From contig LCQK01000001.1 of the NCBI GenBank assembly GCA_001004105.1, positions 166,928-230,927 on the forward strand: a DNA stretch of 64,000 nucleotides. The letters are read 5' to 3'. The notes under the pieces were generated by a model. It worked only from the letters and a program-made list of their open reading frames with translations. It had not been told where the DNA came from and did not search any database. This stretch comes from Candidatus Jorgensenbacteria bacterium GW2011_GWB1_50_10 (GTDB taxonomy: Bacteria; Patescibacteriota; Minisyncoccia; UBA6257; GWB1-50-10). The translations under genes and the position numbers were made by a program. The stretch's first letter is position 1. Every line of letters begins with the position of its first letter. Below are positions 1,713-61,914 of this stretch, one piece after another.

Positions 1713-1790
1713 GAAGTCCCGCCGCCGATCTCAGGCAACTCCTTTCTATAAGAAGTTCCGGACTTTTATTTCTTTTCTTTCTCTCTTTTT

Positions 1791-1818
1791 TCATTTTCTC
1801 CCATATGGGAGAAAATGA
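1791..1818. repeat. Perfect 28-nt palindrome TCATTTTCTCCCATATGGGAGAAAATGA (CCCATATGGG-core family)
   Basis: Reverse complement identical; intergenic downstream of ComEA-like gene; shares core TTTCTCCCATATGGGAGAAA with copies at 10339, 11038, 61877. Confidence 0.8.
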
Positions 1819-2144
1819 GATATGGCAAAAACTTCAGAGAGATGCTCAGCGGCATATTAGGGAATGGAGCAATCTTTTCTCCGATATAGGAGTAACGGAA
1901 ATTCTGAAGAGTTCGAGCTATAAACGGGTTGATTTCCAAGAAAATCAGGTTCAAATTCGGTTCGCGCCCTCGCCGCGCGGTTCAAAATAGGGGAATTGGG
2001 AAAAAATTTGCCAACCTCCGAAAATTATGACGTTTTAGGAGGTTATCCCCACTTGCCACGTTTGACCAGTCAGCCATAATTTATCATGCCGAGCGTCGAA
2101 GAAAATCCGCCGGCTGGCGGATTAAAAAAAATCAAAAATTTTTC

Positions 2145-4630: not shown

Positions 4631-4666
4631 CCAACCCGCCTCTCTTAAGGGGCGGGTTGCTGTTTG
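4631..4666 (+). terminator. Rho-independent terminator after nrdJ
   Basis: Stem CAACCCGCC / GGCGGGTTG (9 bp) with loop tctcttaag, followed by CTGTTTG. Confidence 0.55.
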
Positions 4667-4896
4667 CGGCCGTTGGGGATGAGACGGGCGAGAACTTCCT
4701 CTTCGGTTTCTGCTCTCCGCTCGCCGTTGCCGACGTCTCTTTTCCATCGGCAGACTTCCAGAGTGACGGTGAGATTGTACACGAACGATTTTTCTCCGTC
4801 CGCGGCGAGGTTTACCGCCGTAATCCAAGCGGGGTTGAGGCCGTAGAGGCAGATCCCTAACTCCTTCCGCTTTTCGGAGAGTTCAGTCGCGTCCAC
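4645..4896 (-). CDS. Hypothetical small protein (GC-rich islet), GTG start
   Basis: 83 aa ORF; GGGAGGG immediately upstream of GTG; weak motif similarity (NPxx..A..EV) to the N-terminal half of the 56507 orphan protein; opposite-strand ORF 4657..4860 is an alternative. Confidence 0.3.
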   Translation of the reverse strand: MDATELSEKRKELGICLYGLNPAWITAVNLAADGEKSFVYNLTVTLEVCRWKRDVGNGERRAETEEEVLARLIPNGRKQQPAP

Positions 4897-4968
4897 TTTC
4901 CCTCCCTGAGAGTTCTAATTTAATTATATTCCTCGCAGATTTGATTTTTTGAGGGAAAAGTGCATAAA

Positions 4969-5199
4969 CTACAGGTAGCCCCCATCTTGGAGGAATATAT
5001 GTTTCAGGGGATTATCGCCTTGCCGCCAGGAAGGACTCTGGATGACGTTCGGGAGTTGAAGCCCAACGAAGGCGAGTGGCGGCCGCTGCCTGGCCTCTTC
5101 TGCATCAGTGATAGCGAACCCGCCGTTGCTCACCCTAACACGGACGGTATCGTGGGGTGTCCGGCGTGTCTCGCTACAGAAGATTTCACCGACGGTCAC
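4969..5199 (-). CDS. Hypothetical small protein (GC-rich islet), GTG start; possible paralog of the downstream ORF
   Basis: 76 aa; GGGGAGGG upstream of GTG, same initiation signature as 4645..4896; C-terminal GDNPLKHIFLQDG resembles KYNPLLKAFLAYND of the 56507 protein; plus-strand ORF 4999..5250 (GGAGG-6-ATG) is an equally possible alternative in this GC-rich stretch. Confidence 0.25.
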   Translation of the reverse strand: MTVGEIFCSETRRTPHDTVRVRVSNGGFAITDAEEARQRPPLAFVGLQLPNVIQSPSWRQGDNPLKHIFLQDGGYL

Positions 5200-5262
5200 C
5201 GCCCTCCCCGGCGGTTCCGTCGTGCGCTCGTCGGTTCCGACAGCGAGTGACGGGCAACCGCA

Positions 5263-9893: not shown

Positions 9894-10208
9894 GTGACGA
9901 TGACGGTTGTGCCGGAACTTCCGGTTTCGCTCATGGGTTTAGGCAAGTGTGAGCACTGCGACGGCATCGTTTCTCTGGACCTTGAGCTTCAGAGAAAACC
10001 AGGTGCGGAATCTCTCTCGTGTCCCCACTGCCACCGCGAGATTTCTTTTGCGAAAACCTTCGGTTTCAAGCCGAATCCGTCAAGTTTCAAAAAGGTGAGC
10101 TGGGTTGGCTCGGACGGCAACCGGACCGACGTTAAGCCAGAGGATGATTTCAATCTCGGCCCGTTCCGGGTGCTCGTCGGAGCCAAGCTCGTCGTGAGCG
10201 CAAGCTGA
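9894..10208 (+). CDS. Hypothetical zinc-ribbon protein
   Basis: 104 aa; CEHC..x20..CPHC motif; no recognisable family. Confidence 0.4.
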   Translation: MTMTVVPELPVSLMGLGKCEHCDGIVSLDLELQRKPGAESLSCPHCHREISFAKTFGFKPNPSSFKKVSWVGSDGNRTDVKPEDDFNLGPFRVLVGAKLVVSAS

Positions 10209-10338
10209 AGAGGTTTACGAGAAGCCAGAAAGGCGCCGCTCCGTGAATTTACGGACCGCGGCGCTTTCGTTCTAATCTTCTTAAATAATCTATTAAAGCA
10301 AAAAGCTGGTTCCTGTTTCAATTTCATTTATTAATAGT

Positions 10339-10384
10339 CTCTTCTATTCACTTTCTCCCATATGGGAGAAAGTGAATAGAAGAG
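10339..10384. repeat. Perfect 46-nt palindrome CTCTTCTATTCACTTTCTCCCATATGGGAGAAAGTGAATAGAAGAG
   Basis: Reverse complement identical; 150 bp upstream of the GC-rich orphan gene 10538..10921. Confidence 0.85.
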
Positions 10385-10446
10385 AATCAAACTCAATTTA
10401 AAAATTGAGAGAATGAAAATCTGACTTTAACAATCCACACCCCTTA

Positions 10447-10474
10447 TTGACTATTTTCTTTTAATATCTACAAT
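10447..10474 (+). promoter_or_regulatory. Sigma70-like promoter (TTGACT-16-TACAAT) for the orphan gene 10538..10921
   Basis: -35 TTGACT 10447..10452, -10 TACAAT 10469..10474. Confidence 0.4.
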
Positions 10475-10537
10475 CTGTTCTTAGTCCCTAGTGATCTATC
10501 CTCAATCCATCCAACTTAAGCGGAGAGGAGAAAAACC

Positions 10538-10921
10538 ATGCGGGTACAGGTTGCTCCATCCCAGGCCCAGATTTTTCAGAAGATGATGGCGGGGGCGAAA
10601 AAACCCATCACCGACGGGGCGCTCGTCCGAGTTGACCTACTGCACCTCGTGACACGGAGGGTCAGCCGCCGGACGAGAGAGGCGTATTTCAACGCCAGGG
10701 GGCGAGTTCGGCCGAGGTGCTTCTTCGTCCAGGGGAACGGTGCGCCCATTTCGGAGAGAATCCGGTTTGAGGGCATTGTTCTTCGGGGGAGAGGCGAGTT
10801 CGCGGCTCACGACGTCTTCAACGTGATGGTGGACGCGCGCGACCCGGCGGTCACGGTCATCCGGCCGTGGAAGGACGATGAGCATCCGGAGGAAAACACC
10901 GACGTGAAGCCCGCGCACTGA
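10538..10921 (+). CDS. Hypothetical GC-rich orphan protein (127 aa); shares C-terminal motif VTV(I/Y)RP(W/M)K with the 56507 protein
   Basis: GGAGAGGAG RBS then ATG; about 60% GC vs AT-rich flanks; own promoter and terminator; flanked by CCCATATGGG palindromes. Confidence 0.5.
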   Translation: MRVQVAPSQAQIFQKMMAGAKKPITDGALVRVDLLHLVTRRVSRRTREAYFNARGRVRPRCFFVQGNGAPISERIRFEGIVLRGRGEFAAHDVFNVMVDARDPAVTVIRPWKDDEHPEENTDVKPAH

Positions 10922-10956
10922 AGAGCACAACTAAGGGATGGAGTAACAAGAACGAG

Positions 10957-10994
10957 GGGCAGTCGTCCGCCGGATGACTGCCCTTTTGATTTTT
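10957..10994 (+). terminator. Rho-independent terminator
   Basis: GGGCAGTC gtccgccggat GACTGCCC followed by TTTTGATTTTT. Confidence 0.6.
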
Positions 10995-11037
10995 CTAATT
11001 TTTATAAATTATTAATTATTAAGTTGCGATTGTCTTT

Positions 11038-11069
11038 ATTCACTTTATCCCATATGGGATAAAGTGAAT
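11038..11069. repeat. Perfect 32-nt palindrome ATTCACTTTATCCCATATGGGATAAAGTGAAT
   Basis: Reverse complement identical; downstream flank of the orphan gene. Confidence 0.85.
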
Positions 11070-11084
11070 GCTTAGTGAGTATGT

Positions 11085-11123
11085 GAAAACAAAACGGCCG
11101 CGATTCCTGGTGAATCGGGCCGT
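11085..11123. terminator. Imperfect hairpin flanked by A-run and T-run (bidirectional terminator between convergent genes)
   Basis: AAAACGGCCGCGATTCC tggtg AATCGGGCCGTTTTCAG. Confidence 0.4.
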
Positions 11124-11125
11124 TT

Positions 11126-11512
11126 TCAGTTCAAGCTGGTAGGAAGGGCGATAGCGAAGTTTGTTGCGAGTCGAATGCGCTTACGCTTCATGTTAGCCAT
11201 TTCCCACGCGAGATGCGAGATGAGGCAAACAGAGGCGAGTTCGGTTTCGGTGAGGTCGTCCTGTTCCTTGAGGATGTTGCAGCCGTGGATGGCTTCTTCG
11301 GCATCGTGGCGAAGAATTTTCCAGAGCGGAAAATCTTCACCGGTTCTCCGGAACGCCTCGACGAGATTTTTGAACGTTTTGATTCTCATCATGGCGTAGA
11401 GGAAAGCGCCCATCTCGAGTGAACACTCCGCTTCATCGGCTTCTTCGTAGCGCCGCTTGCAGTAGTCAAGCGCTTGCCCGAAAGCCGCATCGGAAATTTC
11501 TTTAATCAGCAT
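11126..11512 (-). CDS. Hypothetical protein (128 aa)
   Basis: Clean ORF, no recognisable motif. Confidence 0.45.
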   Translation of the reverse strand: MLIKEISDAAFGQALDYCKRRYEEADEAECSLEMGAFLYAMMRIKTFKNLVEAFRRTGEDFPLWKILRHDAEEAIHGCNILKEQDDLTETELASVCLISHLAWEMANMKRKRIRLATNFAIALPTSLN

Positions 11513-11582
11513 GGATGCTGCCGCCTTTCTTCGGGTTTGGTTGTTTCGGTACCGCTTTCATGAAAGCACAAAGCCTGTGGAT

Positions 11583-11609
11583 TTGTAAAATTTAACGATG
11601 TGCTATAAT
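11583..11609 (+). promoter_or_regulatory. Sigma70-like promoter with extended -10 (TTGTAA ... TGcTATAAT)
   Basis: -35 TTGTAA 11583..11588; TGC then TATAAT 11604..11609; spacer 15-16. Confidence 0.35.
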
Positions 11610-11680
11610 TCAAGGCACAACCTGAAAATAAACAATCCATCCCAAATCTTGTGAGGAGAGAAGGGGTGGAGGGTTGTTCG

Positions 11681-11721
11681 AGAAAGGCCTCTTTTTGAAG
11701 GAGAGGCCTTTCTGTTTTTTG
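11681..11721 (+). terminator. Strong rho-independent terminator about 70 nt downstream of the promoter (bounds a ~105-nt transcript / leader)
   Basis: Perfect 12-bp stem AGAAAGGCCTCT / AGAGGCCTTTCT then GTTTTTTGAG. Confidence 0.6.
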
Positions 11722-11788
11722 AGTGCTTGATAAAATTTTTTTGGAGGAGCGGCAGGAAAAGAAGAAGTCGGTTTCTTTGGAGAAAGCG

Positions 11789-11848: not shown

Positions 11849-12306
11849 AGCCGGCAAACCGGAGAACGGGCCCCGCAAACCAGAAGGAAAACGGGCCCTT
11901 TTTCTATAATGAAGAGATGGACAAAGAAAAATTACCACCAGAACTCTATCGCGTGGCATATGAGAAAGGCACCGAGGTGCCTTTCACCGGCAAATATGTT
12001 CATGAAAAAGCCGAGGGTATGTACAGGTGCGCCGTCTGCGGCAGCGAACTTTTTTCGTCGGAGGCGAAATTTGATTCCGGCACCGGCTGGCCGAGTTTCA
12101 CCGAGCCGGCCAATTTGAACAATATTGAACTAAAGGAAGATTTAAGCGGAGGCATGCGGCGCACCGAGGTTTTGTGCAGAAAGTGCGGGGCGCACTTGGG
12201 CCATGTTTTTGACGATGGGCCGCGGGACGGGCGCCTGCCTGCCGGCAGGCAGGGCAAGCGTTATTGCATCAACTCCGTTTGTTTGGACCTGGAAAAGAAA
12301 GAGTAG
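11845..12306 (+). CDS. msrB: Peptide-methionine (R)-S-oxide reductase MsrB carrying an in-frame LPAGRQ insertion
   Basis: CxxC...[23 protein letters not shown] MsrB motifs; ATG at 11917 is an alternative start; 6-aa insertion between DG and GKRYCINS encoded by the palindrome. Confidence 0.85.
12234..12253. repeat. 20-nt perfect palindrome CCTGCCTGCCGGCAGGCAGG, in-frame inside msrB (encodes LPAGRQ)
   Basis: Direct read; reverse complement identical; no stop codon in any frame. Confidence 0.9.
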
Positions 12307-12322
12307 TGTGATAAAAACAAAT

Positions 12323-12370
12323 CCCGCCAGTCCATGGACTGGCGGGGCCGCCAGTCCATGGACTGGCGGG
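12323..12370. terminator. Two tandem 24-nt palindromic hairpins (CCGCCAGTCCATGGACTGGCGG twice) between convergent genes
   Basis: Each unit is self-complementary with CCATGG centre; lies between the msrB stop and the minus-strand ORF stop. Confidence 0.45.
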
Positions 12371-25442: not shown

Positions 25443-25526
25443 TGCCCGAGGTGGGAGTCGAACCCACATGTCCTTGCGAACACAGGATTTTGAGTCCTGC
25501 GCGTCTGCCAGTTCCGCCACCCGGGC
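25443..25526 (-). tRNA. tRNA-Leu (anticodon CAA), type II with long variable arm
   Basis: GCCCGGG TG GCGG AACTGGCAGAC GC GCAGGA CTCAAAA TCCTGT var GTTCGCAAGGACATG TGGG TTCGACT CCCA CTCGGGC A. Confidence 0.85.
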
Positions 25527-25545
25527 CTGCCTGCCGGCAGGCAGG
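25526..25545. repeat. 20-nt palindrome CCTGCCTGCCGGCAGGCAGG abutting the 5' end of tRNA-Leu
   Basis: Direct read; first base is shared with the tRNA. Confidence 0.9.
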
Positions 25546-25593
25546 CGAAATTTTATTGATAATGCCACAAATATTGGGTAGAGTAAATATTAT

Positions 25594-35946: not shown

Positions 35947-36130
35947 GAACTTTTATTTTTTACGTCAGACACTCTTCGGCTCGGGCGATTTCGTCCCGCT
36001 TCGGCGGGACTCAACCCTTCGCTCGCTTTAGACCGAGCACTCAAAGCATTGAGTGCTCGGTAGCTCGCTCACCCTAAAGGGCTCCGCCGAAGAATGGTAT
36101 TGAGAGTCTGACTTTAAAAAATAAAAGTTC
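35947..36130 (+). ncRNA. Structured repeat element copy A (about 184 nt): long closing stem, two internal perfect hairpins, conserved cores; second copy at 56176
   Basis: Closing stem GAACTTTTATTTTTTACGTCAGACACTCTTCGGC / GCCGAAGAAT..GAGAGTCTGACTTTAAAAAATAAAAGTTC; inner hairpins GTCCCGC-ttcg-GCGGGAC and CCGAGCACTCAA-agca-TTGAGTGCTCGG; conserved TCAACCCTTCGCTCGCTTTAGA and TAGCTCGCTCACCCTAAAGGGCTCCGCCGAAGAAT. Confidence 0.5.
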
Positions 36131-56175: not shown

Positions 56176-56367
56176 AAACTTCTTTTCTTACGCCAGACAG
56201 CTTCAGCTCGGGCGATTTCCCCCGCCTGTCCATGGGCAGGCGGGGTCAACCCCTCGCTCGCTTTAGATCCGGTGGTATGACGCGTCATACCACCGGATAG
56301 CTCGCTCACCCTAAAGGGCTTCGCCGAAGAATTGAGGGGTAAGTCTGGCGCAAAGAAAAGTAGTTTT
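56176..56367 (+). ncRNA. Structured repeat element copy B (about 192 nt), homolog of copy A with compensatory changes
   Basis: Closing stem AAACTTCTTTTCTTACGCCAGACAGCTTCAGC / GCCGAAGAAT..GTCTGGCGCAAAGAAAAGTAGTTT; hairpins CCCCGCCTG..CAGGCGGGG and TCCGGTGGTATGACG/CGTCATACCACCGGA; same conserved cores as A. Confidence 0.5.
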
Positions 56368-57066: not shown

Positions 57067-57651
57067 TTATCCTTTCTCCACCCGTTCTACGTAATCGCCG
57101 CTTGCCGTGTTTATGCGGATGATGTCGCCTTCATTGATGAAGAGGGGAACATTTACTTTGGCGCCGGTTTCCAAAGTCACGGTTTTAGTGCCGCCCTGGG
57201 CGGTGTTGCCTTTGACGCCCGGCGGCGCTTCCGTCACTTTCAAGTCCATCTTGACGGGCGGTTCGATATTGATGATTTTTTCGTTGAATTTGAAAGCCCG
57301 TGCCTCGCTGCCCTGTTTCAAATAATTTGCCGCTTCGCCCACGATGTCGGCCTTGAGGGCAAATCTTGATTTGGGATTGCCAGAGACGTGGAACCAGTAC
57401 TCCTGCCTGCCGGCAGGCAGGCGCCGCGCATAAATAAACTCAACCGGAATTATCTCAATATCTGCCTCTTTGAACGAGTCGTTCTGGTGGGCGGCGTATT
57501 CCCGGACCTTGCCGGAAATTAAATTCTTGATTTTGAGCTGGGCCACGGGCTTGCGCTGCTGCATCCGGACGAAGGCGTAGTCCAGTACCTCATACGGCTC
57601 GCCGTCTTTAATGAACAACATCCCGACTTTTAGTTCGTTGTAGGAAAGCAT
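57067..57651 (-). CDS. efp: Elongation factor P carrying an in-frame LPAGRQ insertion
   Basis: 194 aa EF-P; FIYARR-LPAGRQ-EYWFHV where canonical EF-P has a short loop. Confidence 0.9.
   Translation of the reverse strand: MLSYNELKVGMLFIKDGEPYEVLDYAFVRMQQRKPVAQLKIKNLISGKVREYAAHQNDSFKEADIEIIPVEFIYARRLPAGRQEYWFHVSGNPKSRFALKADIVGEAANYLKQGSEARAFKFNEKIINIEPPVKMDLKVTEAPPGVKGNTAQGGTKTVTLETGAKVNVPLFINEGDIIRINTASGDYVERVEKG
57402..57421. repeat. 20-nt palindrome CCTGCCTGCCGGCAGGCAGG in-frame inside efp
   Basis: Direct read, perfect copy. Confidence 0.9.
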
Positions 57652-61775: not shown

Positions 61776-61800
61776 CCAGTTGCTGTAAGATTTCTGTCTC

Positions 61801-61834
61801 GCCTCAAAAACGCCCATATGGGCGTTTTTGAGGC
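61801..61834. repeat. 34-nt perfect palindrome GCCTCAAAAACGCCCATATGGGCGTTTTTGAGGC (hairpin after the comEC-MBL stop)
   Basis: Reverse complement identical; CCCATATGGG core; no T-run. Confidence 0.8.
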
Positions 61835-61876
61835 GGTAGAGAAAAAGTTTAGTTTGGAAATTGGGTTGTTCTTTCT

Positions 61877-61914
61877 CTATTTCACTTTCTCCCATATGGG
61901 AGAAAGTGAAATAG
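61877..61914. repeat. 38-nt perfect palindrome CTATTTCACTTTCTCCCATATGGGAGAAAGTGAAATAG
   Basis: Reverse complement identical; same family as 10339 and 11038. Confidence 0.85.

What the first reader, a model, noticed from the sequence alone, without database searches (positions are those of the whole stretch)
10339..11069. GC-rich orphan gene cassette (promoter, RBS, ORF, terminator) bracketed by two CCCATATGGG palindromes in an AT-rich spacer
The gene 10538-10921 is about 60% GC while the flanking spacers are about 30-35% GC. It has its own TTGACT-16-TACAAT promoter, a GGAGAGGAG SD and an intrinsic terminator. The whole unit sits between near-identical palindromes at 10339 and 11038. This looks like a horizontally acquired or mobile mini-cassette rather than a native gene.
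Basis: seen in the sequence. Interest (0 to 1): 0.6.

Follow-up and report, generated by a model that had tools for sequence, protein, structure and literature searches.

The report
Native fast-evolving gene between stray palindromes
The GC-rich gene is not a mobile cassette but a native, unusually fast-diverging gene of a few Jorgensenbacteria, and the two palindromes beside it are stray copies of a repeat that normally brackets small PaaX-like regulator genes across Patescibacteria.

Summary
ORF 10538-10921 has 62.5% GC, the highest of about 74 genes in the window. It has a promoter, SD and terminator, and sits in AT-rich spacers between perfect palindromes of 48 nt (10338-10385) and 32 nt (11038-11069).

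The "mobile cassette" reading fails. Three distant homologs (32-38% identity) lie at the same place (MacB/DUF378 ... msrB) in related genomes. They share the promoter, terminator and about 60% GC, and none has the palindromes. The gene is native.

Its interior is anomalous: 38% protein identity where neighbours are 87-98%. Its two ends are conserved and pair with each other.

The palindromes belong to a dispersed, CATATG-centred family with five copies in the window and others in other CPR genomes. The arms covary strictly by Watson-Crick rules.

In 11 of 11 loci examined, palindromes of this kind lie at a small PaaX-like gene (winged helix plus Cas2-like domain): on both sides in ten loci, upstream only in L036. 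The upstream copy overlaps or abuts the gene's promoter. The window keeps a decayed copy of such a gene beside palindrome A.

The palindromes are most likely the regulator's binding sites that spread as solo copies; a REPtron-like selfish element is the main rival. I found no published description in the four full-text searches I ran.

The parts
10338..10385 (.). Palindrome B: 48-nt perfect zero-spacer palindrome TCTCTTCTATTCACTTTCTCCCAT|ATGGGAGAAAGTGAATAGAAGAGA. It lies between the upstream terminator-like hairpin (10230-10267) and the ORF promoter.
   Evidence: I2, 24+24, 100%; DNA hairpin -23.4 kcal/mol, z -9.1; absent at the equivalent place in L016, L018 and L020
10447..10474 (+). Sigma-70-type promoter TTGACT-16-TACAAT of the ORF
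   Evidence: 10 of 12 matches; the same hexamers are conserved upstream of all three homologs
10522..10530 (+). Shine-Dalgarno GGAGAGGAG, 7 nt before the ATG
   Evidence: conserved as GGAGAGGAG in L016
10538..10921 (+). ORFa: 127-aa basic protein (pI 10.5), one N-terminal helix followed by beta strands. It belongs to a tiny family restricted to a narrow Jorgensenbacteria/Paceibacterota clade and has a tandem paralog 'b' in relatives.
   Evidence: best codon score in frame +0; 3 homologs at 32-38% identity; paralogy to 'b' genes with hhalign probability 92%; AlphaFold2 pLDDT 90.5; no Pfam, NCBIfam, PADLOC or PHROG hit and no PDB or BFVD fold match
10550..10562 (+). 5' partner (codons 5-9, GTTGCTCCATCCC) of a conserved long-range pairing with the 3' UTR
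   Evidence: I7; duplex -34.5 kcal/mol, z -4.2; conserved with one compensatory change in L020 and a G.U to A-U change in L018
10935..10947 (+). 3' partner (GGGATGGAGTAAC), 14 nt after the stop codon and just before the terminator
   Evidence: 86% nt identity to L016 over 10935-10993
10954..10996 (+). Intrinsic terminator of ORFa (15-bp stem, then TTTTGATTTTT)
   Evidence: conserved in L016
11038..11069 (.). Palindrome C: 32-nt perfect palindrome ATTCACTTTATCCCAT|ATGGGATAAAGTGAAT, lying between two convergent terminators. It differs from B by a compensated C:G to A:T change.
   Evidence: I3, D1; DNA hairpin -12.9 kcal/mol, z -9.0; its core and left flank match the site downstream of the PaaX-like gene in L023
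1791..1818 (.). Palindrome A: 28-nt perfect palindrome of the same family, with a compensated C:G to T:A change
   Evidence: both flanks are homologous to the upstream site of the L023 PaaX-like gene (scores 20 and 15 against a 99th percentile of 10)
1822..1987 (+). Decayed remnant of a PaaX-like gene. It starts MAKTS, is then frameshifted (RDAQRHIREWSNLFSD...), and the Cas2-like domain is missing.
   Evidence: tblastn 1829-1981, E 4e-8; 21 family members hit only this spot in the window
61800..61835 (.). Palindrome E: 36-nt perfect palindrome CGCCTCAAAAACGCCCAT|ATGGGCGTTTTTGAGGCG. It has the CCTCA-outer-box / CATATG-centre architecture seen at PaaX-like genes elsewhere.
   Evidence: compare the L037 site GTCCTCAAAAAATCACATATGTGATTTTTTGAGGAC
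61877..61914 (.). Palindrome D: 38-nt perfect palindrome whose 30-nt core is identical to that of B
   Evidence: DNA hairpin -17.3 kcal/mol

Best explanation
Two unrelated things are superimposed here. (1) ORFa is a native, monocistronic, lineage-restricted gene with its own promoter, SD and terminator. It encodes a small, basic, well-folded protein (one helix, then beta strands) of unknown family. High GC is a trait of the whole family. The mRNA ends (codons 5-9 and the 3' UTR) pair with each other and are conserved, whereas the coding interior differs between close relatives far more than any neighbouring gene. The most likely cause is exchange of deeply diverged alleles by recombination in the conserved ends; diversifying selection is the alternative. 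(2) The two palindromes are independent solo copies of a dispersed, CATATG-centred perfect-palindrome family. The home of this family is the two ends of small PaaX-like genes (winged helix plus Cas2-like PaaX_M domain) in Patescibacteria. At those genes the upstream copy overlaps or abuts an extended -10 promoter that lies 6-7 nt before the ATG in most loci, so the protein most likely binds the palindrome as a dimer or tetramer and represses itself, possibly by looping to the downstream copy 550-700 nt away. In this genome lineage, extra copies have landed in AT-rich intergenic spacers, two of them on either side of ORFa. Status of the steps: synteny, composition, covariation, and the gene-palindrome association and its position are shown; protein binding, repression, and how the solo copies spread are inferred.
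For: Native gene: homologs P0002-P0004 are the only hits in 1.84 billion representatives. All sit in the same MacB/DUF378 ... msrB neighbourhood with the same promoter and terminator. GC is 0.596-0.625 in every homolog. Divergence outlier: ORFa is 37.8% identical while MacB is 98.3%, DUF378 95.8% and MsrB 86.6%; the values stay at 35-44% whatever the genome distance. End pairing: z -4.2 in 3 of 4 homologs. Palindromes are not cassette ends: they are absent from L016, L018 and L020. Palindrome family: 5 copies in the window against 0.03 expected. Exact 24-base core matches occur in 3 other CPR MAGs and 13 metagenome stretches. Arm covariation: 17 of 22 pairs change on both sides, 0 of 500 shuffles reach this, and G.U pairs are almost absent. 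Link to PaaX-like genes: Pfam PF20803 at E 5e-17. Palindromes occur at 11 of 11 PaaX-like loci (both sides in ten, upstream only in L036), with lineage-specific cores TCCCATATGGGA, TTCCATATGGAA, TGCATATGCA, CCACATATGTGG, TCACATATGTGA and GTACATATGTAC. The upstream copies contain or abut TGnTATAAT-like boxes, 6-7 nt before the ATG in most loci. A decayed gene lies beside copy A, and the flanks of copies A and C are homologous to the gene-proximal sites in L023.
Confidence: 0.6

Rival explanations
1. REPtron-like selfish element. The palindromes are hairpin-forming REP/MITE-like DNA elements. They are mobilised or maintained by the wHTH-Cas2-like protein they bracket, or by host replication and repair, and solo copies spread or persist without any regulatory role. 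ORFa happens to lie between two insertions.
For: The architecture mirrors REPtrons: a gene bracketed by its palindromes plus dispersed intergenic solos. Arms covary strictly by Watson-Crick rules out to variable outer positions. Positions are not conserved between the related genomes compared (window versus WY5.bin131 or L016). In WY5.bin131 the core sits inside a 110-240-nt imperfect inverted-repeat element present on three contigs. Copies carry homologous flanks. Many PaaX-like genes sit on very short contigs, as expected if assemblies break at repeats. Another perfect palindrome is an insertion polymorphism within this population.
Against: No transposase or HUH/Y1 domain was found; PaaX_M has no known DNA-cleaving activity. 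Six of the 20-kb PaaX-like loci contain only the gene-proximal copies and no solos. No target-site duplication or exact empty site could be defined. There were no hits on viral contigs.
Confidence: 0.22
2. First reader's model. The unit 10339-11069 is a horizontally acquired or mobile mini-cassette whose ends are the two palindromes.
For: ORFa is the most GC-rich gene of the window. The two flanking palindromes are 94% identical over 33 nt. The surrounding segments (zinc-ribbon gene, the 128-aa minus-strand gene) differ between relatives.
Against: The gene with the same promoter and terminator is present at the same site in 3 other genomes without the palindromes. GC-richness is shared by all homologs and paralogs. 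No integrase or transposase lies within 6 kb. The palindromes belong to a family with its own home elsewhere.
Confidence: 0.04
3. Co-option. Palindromes B and C are functional operators that place ORFa inside a repression loop of the PaaX-like protein, copying the arrangement at the regulator's own gene.
For: The centre-to-centre distance B-C is 692 nt, inside the 550-700-nt range of the pairs that bracket PaaX-like genes. Both copies are perfect palindromes with the exact family core.
Against: Relatives express the same gene from the same promoter without palindromes. B ends 62 nt upstream of the -35 hexamer, and C lies beyond the terminator. The only PaaX-like gene in the window is decayed. 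The spacing is largely set by gene length.
Confidence: 0.08
4. RNA-level elements. The palindromes act as transcribed hairpins (terminators, mRNA stabilisers or RNase III sites).
For: The stems are very stable. Downstream copies sit 5-30 nt after the stop codon of several PaaX-like genes. Copy E has a T-run in its 3' arm.
Against: No U-tract follows the hairpins, and none is called by the terminator scan. B and C lie beyond good intrinsic terminators, so they are probably little transcribed. Covariation shows almost no G.U pairs, which points to DNA-level symmetry.
Confidence: 0.06

Closest known systems
PaaX-family transcriptional repressors (E. coli/Pseudomonas PaaX; Pfam PF20803 PaaX_M, TIGR02277)
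   Same: The gene that the palindromes bracket has the PaaX central Cas2-like domain (E 5e-17 to 9e-16). A weak winged-helix match precedes it in L023 and L030. Like PaaX it is most likely a DNA-binding repressor recognising an inverted repeat (the PaaX comparison is from my own knowledge).
   Different: It is only 169-199 aa, lacks the PaaX C-terminal domain, and scores 23 bits against a cutoff of 264 for TIGR02277. No paa genes are nearby. Its sites are 28-48-nt perfect palindromes centred on CATATG, placed on both sides of its own gene and, in some genomes, dispersed.
REP/BIME elements and REPtrons (RAYT, an IS200/IS605-like Y1 transposase gene flanked by REPs)
   Same: Short intergenic palindromes are dispersed through the genome. 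A small gene is bracketed by two copies of its cognate palindrome, and the palindrome sequence is lineage-specific.
   Different: The bracketed gene is a wHTH-Cas2-like protein, not an HUH/Y1 transposase. The palindromes are perfect, have no spacer, and lack the 5' GTAG motif. Copy number is low (about 1 per 13 kb here, and none beyond the gene in most loci).
Integron gene cassettes (ORF plus attC)
   Different: The ORF has its own conserved promoter. The palindromes are on both sides and perfect, rather than a single imperfect attC with extrahelical bases. There is no intI gene and no cassette array. The gene is syntenic in relatives without the palindromes.
Two-operator looping repressors (DeoR, LacI, GalR)
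   Same: Two identical symmetric sites hundreds of bp apart flank a promoter or gene, and one overlaps the promoter.
   Different: The sites flank the regulator's own whole gene. No biochemical data exist, and the sites are far longer than typical operators.
Lineage-specific fast-evolving (ORFan-like) genes with divergent alleles at a conserved locus
   Same: Flanks and expression signals are conserved, the coding interior is highly divergent, and the taxonomic range is narrow.
   Different: ORFa is cytoplasmic and basic rather than a surface protein. It carries a conserved 5'-3' mRNA pairing and elevated GC in all alleles. It shows no ongoing hypervariation within the population: the sequence is identical on the 14 contigs read.

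Membership tests
Integron gene cassette | A single attC site 3' of the ORF: an imperfect palindrome with R''-L''/L'-R' boxes and extrahelical bases | tested here: not met
   Two perfect zero-spacer palindromes, one on each side of the gene, with no unpaired bases
Integron gene cassette | Promoterless ORF expressed from Pc; intI integrase and a cassette array nearby | tested here: not met
   The gene has its own promoter, conserved in 3 relatives. No integrase family appears among the genes within 6 kb.
Recently acquired genomic islet / mobile cassette | Present or absent as a unit between close relatives, with boundaries at the repeats | tested here: not met
   ORFa is present at the same site in L016, L018/L019 and L020 without the palindromes
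Recently acquired genomic islet / mobile cassette | Composition atypical for the host and not shared by orthologs in relatives | tested here: not met
   Composition is atypical in the window (z +3), but all homologs and paralogs show the same 0.60-0.67 GC
REP elements / REPtron | Dispersed intergenic palindromes, with a gene bracketed by two copies | tested here: met
   Five intergenic copies in the window; 10 of 11 PaaX-like genes bracketed on both sides, L036 upstream only
REP elements / REPtron | The bracketed gene is a RAYT (Y1 HUH transposase, PF01797), and the REP carries a conserved 5' GTAG | tested here: not met
   The gene matches PaaX_M and weakly Cas2 only; there is no GTAG next to the palindromes
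PaaX family regulators | Central Cas2-like PaaX_M domain | tested here: met
   PF20803 at E 4.9e-17 (L023), 6.1e-17 (L012) and 8.7e-16 (L030), all above the gathering score; precomputed for all 61 clusters
PaaX family regulators | Full-length architecture (wHTH + PaaX_M + PaaX_C, about 300 aa) reaching the TIGR02277 equivalog score, with linkage to paa genes | tested here: not met
   169-199 aa; TIGR02277 gives 23 bits against a cutoff of 264; no paa genes in any locus
Autoregulated repressor with operator | Binding site overlaps or abuts the regulator's own promoter | tested here: met
   The extended -10 lies inside the palindrome's right arm in L023, L030, L034 and L040. The palindrome abuts the extended -10 in L035 and L037, and lies within about 50 nt upstream of a -10-like box in L036 and L038. 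This is positional evidence only.
Autoregulated repressor with operator | Sequence-specific binding of the protein to the site | not testable with these tools
   Needs EMSA, footprinting or DAP-seq
Intrinsic terminator (for the palindromes) | GC-rich hairpin followed by a U-tract | tested here: not met
   None of the five palindromes is called by the scan, and no T-run follows them
Known RNA family (for the GC-rich stretch) | Match to an Rfam covariance model | tested here: not met
   There are no credible hits in 10150-11250; only generic hairpin matches to the palindrome, far below gathering scores. The whole window yields tRNAs only.

The most novel reading that the evidence does not exclude
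Patescibacteria carry an undescribed two-part module: a wHTH-Cas2-like protein plus its cognate CATATG-centred perfect palindromes. It would behave like a REPtron built on a non-transposase protein. The protein recognises extruded or duplex palindromes. The module seeds solo palindromes into AT-rich spacers, and these mark or promote the boundaries of variable gene segments such as those around ORFa. ORFa itself would be a conflict-type gene whose alleles are exchanged through its conserved, self-pairing ends.
Probability: 0.15. Interest if true: 0.7.

Novelty: new variant of a known kind. Interest (0 to 1): 0.45.

Why it matters
For the finding as stated, the result is a correction. A striking "cassette" turns out to be a vertically inherited gene with two unrelated repeats that landed beside it. 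Composition together with flanking repeats is therefore not enough to call mobility.

Two by-products are of wider interest.

First, a small PaaX-like (wHTH + Cas2-like) protein family, widespread in Patescibacteria, has long perfect palindromes at its gene in all 11 loci examined, and these co-vary with lineage. That gives a directly testable regulator-site pair in a group of organisms with almost no characterised regulation. It also offers a possible new route by which perfect palindromes disperse in reduced genomes.

Second, ORFa is a clean example of a gene whose interior is about 60% different between genomes that are about 97% identical in adjacent proteins, while its expression signals and an mRNA end-to-end pairing are kept. 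That makes it a candidate for allele exchange or conflict-driven evolution in CPR bacteria.

Tried and rejected
**Structured RNA in place of a protein gene.** Rejected. There is no Rfam hit and no tmRNA. The best codon score is in frame +0, protein-level conservation is clear, and the AF2 model is confident.

**IS200 TnpA or RAYT identity for the 127-aa ORF.** Rejected. There is no Pfam hit at E 0.1.

**Diversity-generating retroelement target.** Rejected. The differences span the whole protein, and the protein is identical on the 14 contigs read from the population.

**Intragenic inversion between the 13-nt inverted repeats.** Considered and dropped. By my own reading of the sequence (no tool call), inversion would give only about a 50-codon frame. 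The G.U to A-U change fits RNA pairing better.

**Palindromes as a parS-like, terminator or classical operator regulon.** Not supported. There is no U-tract, no promoter overlap for the solo copies, and no common function among neighbouring genes.

**Phage origin.** Not supported. Neither the palindrome nor the PaaX-like gene was found on viral contigs, and there were no PHROG or PADLOC hits.

**Relation of the GC-rich ORF 4960-5250 to ORFa.** None.

**Literature.** Four full-text searches found no description of these palindromes or of PaaX-like proteins in CPR bacteria.

**Exact empty-site or target-duplication analysis for B and C.** Not possible. The relatives are too diverged in the spacers.
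Full report
**Source and observation.** The window comes from a Candidatus Jorgensenbacteria genome (CPR/Patescibacteria) from groundwater. The ORF product is identical to UY26_C0002G0071.

- The ORF 10538-10921 has GC 0.625 (GC1/2/3 = 0.66/0.45/0.77), against 0.494 for the window. Its spacers are 0.31-0.37 GC.
- It contains the most GC-rich 384-nt stretch of the 64 kb and is the most GC-rich of about 74 genes (z +3.05).
- The scan calls the promoter TTGACT-16-TACAAT (10447-10474) and the terminator (10954-10986 plus T-run).
- The SD GGAGAGGAG lies 7 nt before the ATG.
- The palindromes are much larger than stated: 48 nt perfect (10338-10385) and 32 nt perfect (11038-11069), sharing 33 nt at 94% identity.

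**Is it a protein gene?** Yes.
- No Rfam family matches the GC-rich stretch.
- Frame +0 has the best codon score.
- An exhaustive HMMER search of 1.84 billion representatives finds three full-length relatives of 122-131 aa at 32-38% identity.
- AlphaFold2 on only six sequences gives pLDDT 90.5 and pTM 0.83, with one N-terminal helix followed by beta strands.
- The protein is basic (pI 10.5, 17 Arg). By eye, the sequence shows no signal peptide or membrane segment (for composition).
- It matches no Pfam, NCBIfam, PADLOC or PHROG family and no PDB or BFVD fold at a significant level.

**Is it a mobile or acquired cassette?** No.
- All three relatives lie in the same neighbourhood in other genomes: an MFP/ABC/MacB transporter operon, DUF378, the ORF, a variable stretch, a conserved noncoding block of about 140 nt, then msrB. 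These loci are L016 (GCA_040960095.1), L018/L019 (GCA_035573955.1) and L020.
- The TTGACT/TACAAT-type promoter, the leader and the terminator are conserved.
- Every homolog has GC 0.596-0.625 in loci of about 0.50-0.52 GC, apart from L020, a 1.55-kb contig of 0.575.
- A tandem paralog "b" present in L016 and L020 (hhalign probability 92%) has GC 0.62-0.67. High GC is therefore a family trait, not a sign of recent transfer.
- None of these loci has the palindromes. In L018 and L020 the preceding terminator is followed almost directly by the -35 box. The roughly 165-nt AT-rich spacer carrying palindrome B is specific to the window's lineage.

**What is unusual about the gene.**
- Between the window and L016, MacB is 98.3% identical, DUF378 95.8% and MsrB 86.6%, but ORFa only 37.8%.
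- Across all genome pairs ORFa stays at 35-44%, whatever the distance.
- At the nucleotide level the promoter (0.83), the first 30 nt of the ORF (0.90) and the terminator (0.87) are conserved, while the interior is at 0.27-0.67.
- The conserved ends pair. GTTGCTCCATCCC (codons 5-9, 10550-10562) pairs with GGGATGGAGTAAC (10935-10947). The duplex is -34.5 kcal/mol with z -4.2.
- The same pairing holds in L016 and L020, the latter with one C-G to T-A compensatory change. It is weaker in L018, with a G.U to A-U change. The "b" paralogs lack it.
- The sequence is identical on the 14 contigs read from the population, so this is not ongoing hypermutation.
- I infer exchange of deeply diverged alleles through the conserved ends, or strong diversifying selection. 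The function of the protein remains open. My guess is a small nucleic-acid-binding or conflict-related protein, held with low confidence.

**What the palindromes are.**
- CCCATATGGG occurs five times in the window against 0.03 expected. The 30-nt pattern occurs four times against 0 expected.
- The copies are A 1791-1818, B, C, D 61877-61914 and E 61800-61835. All lie outside the real genes; the one ORF that one search's automatic gene set places over copy A (1766-1954, minus strand) is, in my judgement, a spurious antisense ORF across the PaaX-like remnant. The window is 89% coding.
- The exact 24-base core CAYTTTNTCCCATATGGGANAAARTG occurs in three other CPR MAGs: WY5.bin131 (six copies), an Uhrbacteria MAG (two) and MAG CAZGRD01 (one). 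It also occurs in 13 metagenome stretches and never on viral contigs.
- Across 16 distinct copies the core is conserved, while the outer arms vary but stay complementary. 17 of 22 arm positions change on both sides, 0 of 500 shuffles reach the observed values, and G.U pairs are almost absent. This indicates DNA-level symmetry rather than an RNA hairpin.
- Positions are not conserved between the related genomes compared.

**The link to PaaX-like genes.**
- In L023 a half-palindrome lies directly before a 171-aa gene and two more copies lie after it.
- That protein has the PaaX central Cas2-like domain (PF20803, E 5e-17), and weak winged-helix matches precede it in L023 and L030.
- The family has 61 clusters, and every source name given for them is a Patescibacteria lineage.
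- I examined 11 loci: L012, L023/L026, L030, L034-L040 and the window remnant. In all of them the gene has CATATG-centred palindromes at its ends: on both sides in ten loci and upstream only in L036. Centre-to-centre spacing of the pairs is 550-700 nt.
- The cores are lineage-specific: TCCCATATGGGA, TTCCATATGGAA, TGCATATGCA, CCACATATGTGG, TCACATATGTGA and GTACATATGTAC. Outer boxes are often CCTCA...TGAGG.
- The upstream copy is often imperfect because it contains, or immediately precedes, an extended -10 box (TGGTATAAT, TGGTATAAA, TGCTATAAT) that lies 6-7 nt before the ATG in most loci. This is the layout of an autoregulated repressor on a leaderless transcript.
- Most 20-kb loci have no further copies, so the solo copies are a lineage-specific proliferation.
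- In the window, copy A is followed at 1822-1987 by a frameshifted, truncated remnant of such a gene. No intact copy exists in the 64 kb.
- The flanks of A match the upstream site of the L023 gene. The core and left flank of C match its downstream site.

**Interpretation.** The most economical reading has three parts.
- ORFa is native.
- B and C are two independent solo copies of the PaaX-like-associated palindrome that landed in its AT-rich spacers.
- The palindrome is the recognition site of the PaaX-like protein.

The mechanism of spread is unresolved. Features that favour a REPtron-like selfish element:
- perfect palindromy extending into variable outer arms;
- frequent location between convergent 3' ends;
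- no overlap with consensus promoters;
- the 110-240-nt inverted-repeat elements around the core in WY5.bin131;
- an 83-nt insertion polymorphism carrying another perfect palindrome within this same population.

Features that argue against it:
- no nuclease or transposase domain was found;
- solo copies are rare in most genomes.

A role of B and C in looping out ORFa (692 nt apart, within the native pair spacing) cannot be excluded. It is unlikely, because relatives run the same promoter without them.

**Novelty.** The cassette interpretation is refuted and the gene itself is an ordinary, if fast-evolving, lineage-specific gene. The PaaX-like gene/palindrome module and its dispersed copies were not found in the searchable literature. 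I rate it as a new variant of known kinds (repressor-operator pairs; REP/REPtron-like repeats).

Noticed in passing
window 11578-11749: A conserved noncoding block lies upstream of msrB: a promoter-like TTGTAA...TATAAT, a transcript of about 90 nt with internal pairing (cacaacc/ggttgtt, ccatccc/ggggtgg), a possible 15-codon ORF, and a terminator. It is 74-84% identical in L016, L018 and L020 although the neighbouring genes differ. There is no Rfam hit. It could be a leader or small RNA.
   Followed up: partly
window 12234-12253, 25525-25546, 57402-57421: A second family of perfect zero-spacer palindromes, CCTGCCTGCCGGCAGGCAGG. One copy lies inside the msrB coding region (encoding ...RLPAGRQ...) and is conserved at the same place in L016 (3886-3905). 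One copy abuts tRNA-Leu.
   Followed up: no
window 12323-12369 and 9892/9893; L001 5273-5355 and 7784-7811: Strain- or assembly-level variation at GC-rich perfect palindromes. The window has a tandem pair CCCGCCAGTCCATGGACTGGCGGG where L001 has one copy. L001, L002 and L003 carry an 83-nt segment with the palindrome ACCCCGCCGGTCCGCGGACCGGCGGGGT between DUF378 and the zinc-ribbon gene, which the window lacks. Several contigs break about 85 nt upstream of this junction, near window 9808.
   Followed up: partly
window 56267-56298; 56177-56332 versus 35948-36095: A 32-nt perfect palindrome, ATCCGGTGGTATGACGCGTCATACCACCGGAT, lies inside a repeat of about 160 nt that is 72% identical to a second copy 20 kb away.
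   Followed up: no
L011 5332-5396 and 7810-7874 (WY5.bin131): Two 100%-identical 65-nt direct repeats, each a small hairpin plus an imperfect family palindrome. They bracket a 2.4-kb segment holding two genes (a histidine-phosphatase-like gene and a 417-aa gene) next to radical-SAM-like genes. This is a larger analogue of 'genes between two palindromes'.
   Followed up: no
L010 4362-4601; L013 6069-6179; L015 4281-4452 (WY5.bin131): In this relative the family palindrome is the centre of a 110-240-nt imperfect inverted-repeat element present on at least three contigs. It is MITE-like.
   Followed up: partly
L018 1-397: A large serine recombinase (Resolvase + Recombinase domains) lies immediately upstream of the MFP/ABC/MacB operon in one relative. 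There is no counterpart in the window.
   Followed up: no
window 9894-10208 and 11126-11512: The segments next to ORFa vary between relatives. The zinc-ribbon gene is present in the window and L020 but absent between DUF378 and ORFa in L016 and L018. The 128-aa minus-strand gene has no family match and no counterpart in the syntenic loci, which carry a 'b' paralog and/or a DUF5667 protein instead.
   Followed up: partly
window 4960-5250 (+) and 4645-4896 (-): Two further small GC-rich ORFs (0.60 and 0.58 GC) without Pfam hits, called as genes in L001. The first is unrelated to the ORFa family (hhalign probability 0.5%).
   Followed up: partly
table (PaaX-like family): A large share of the PaaX-like genes sit on contigs of about 1-2 kb. 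This suggests that their flanking palindromes regularly break metagenome assemblies.
   Followed up: no
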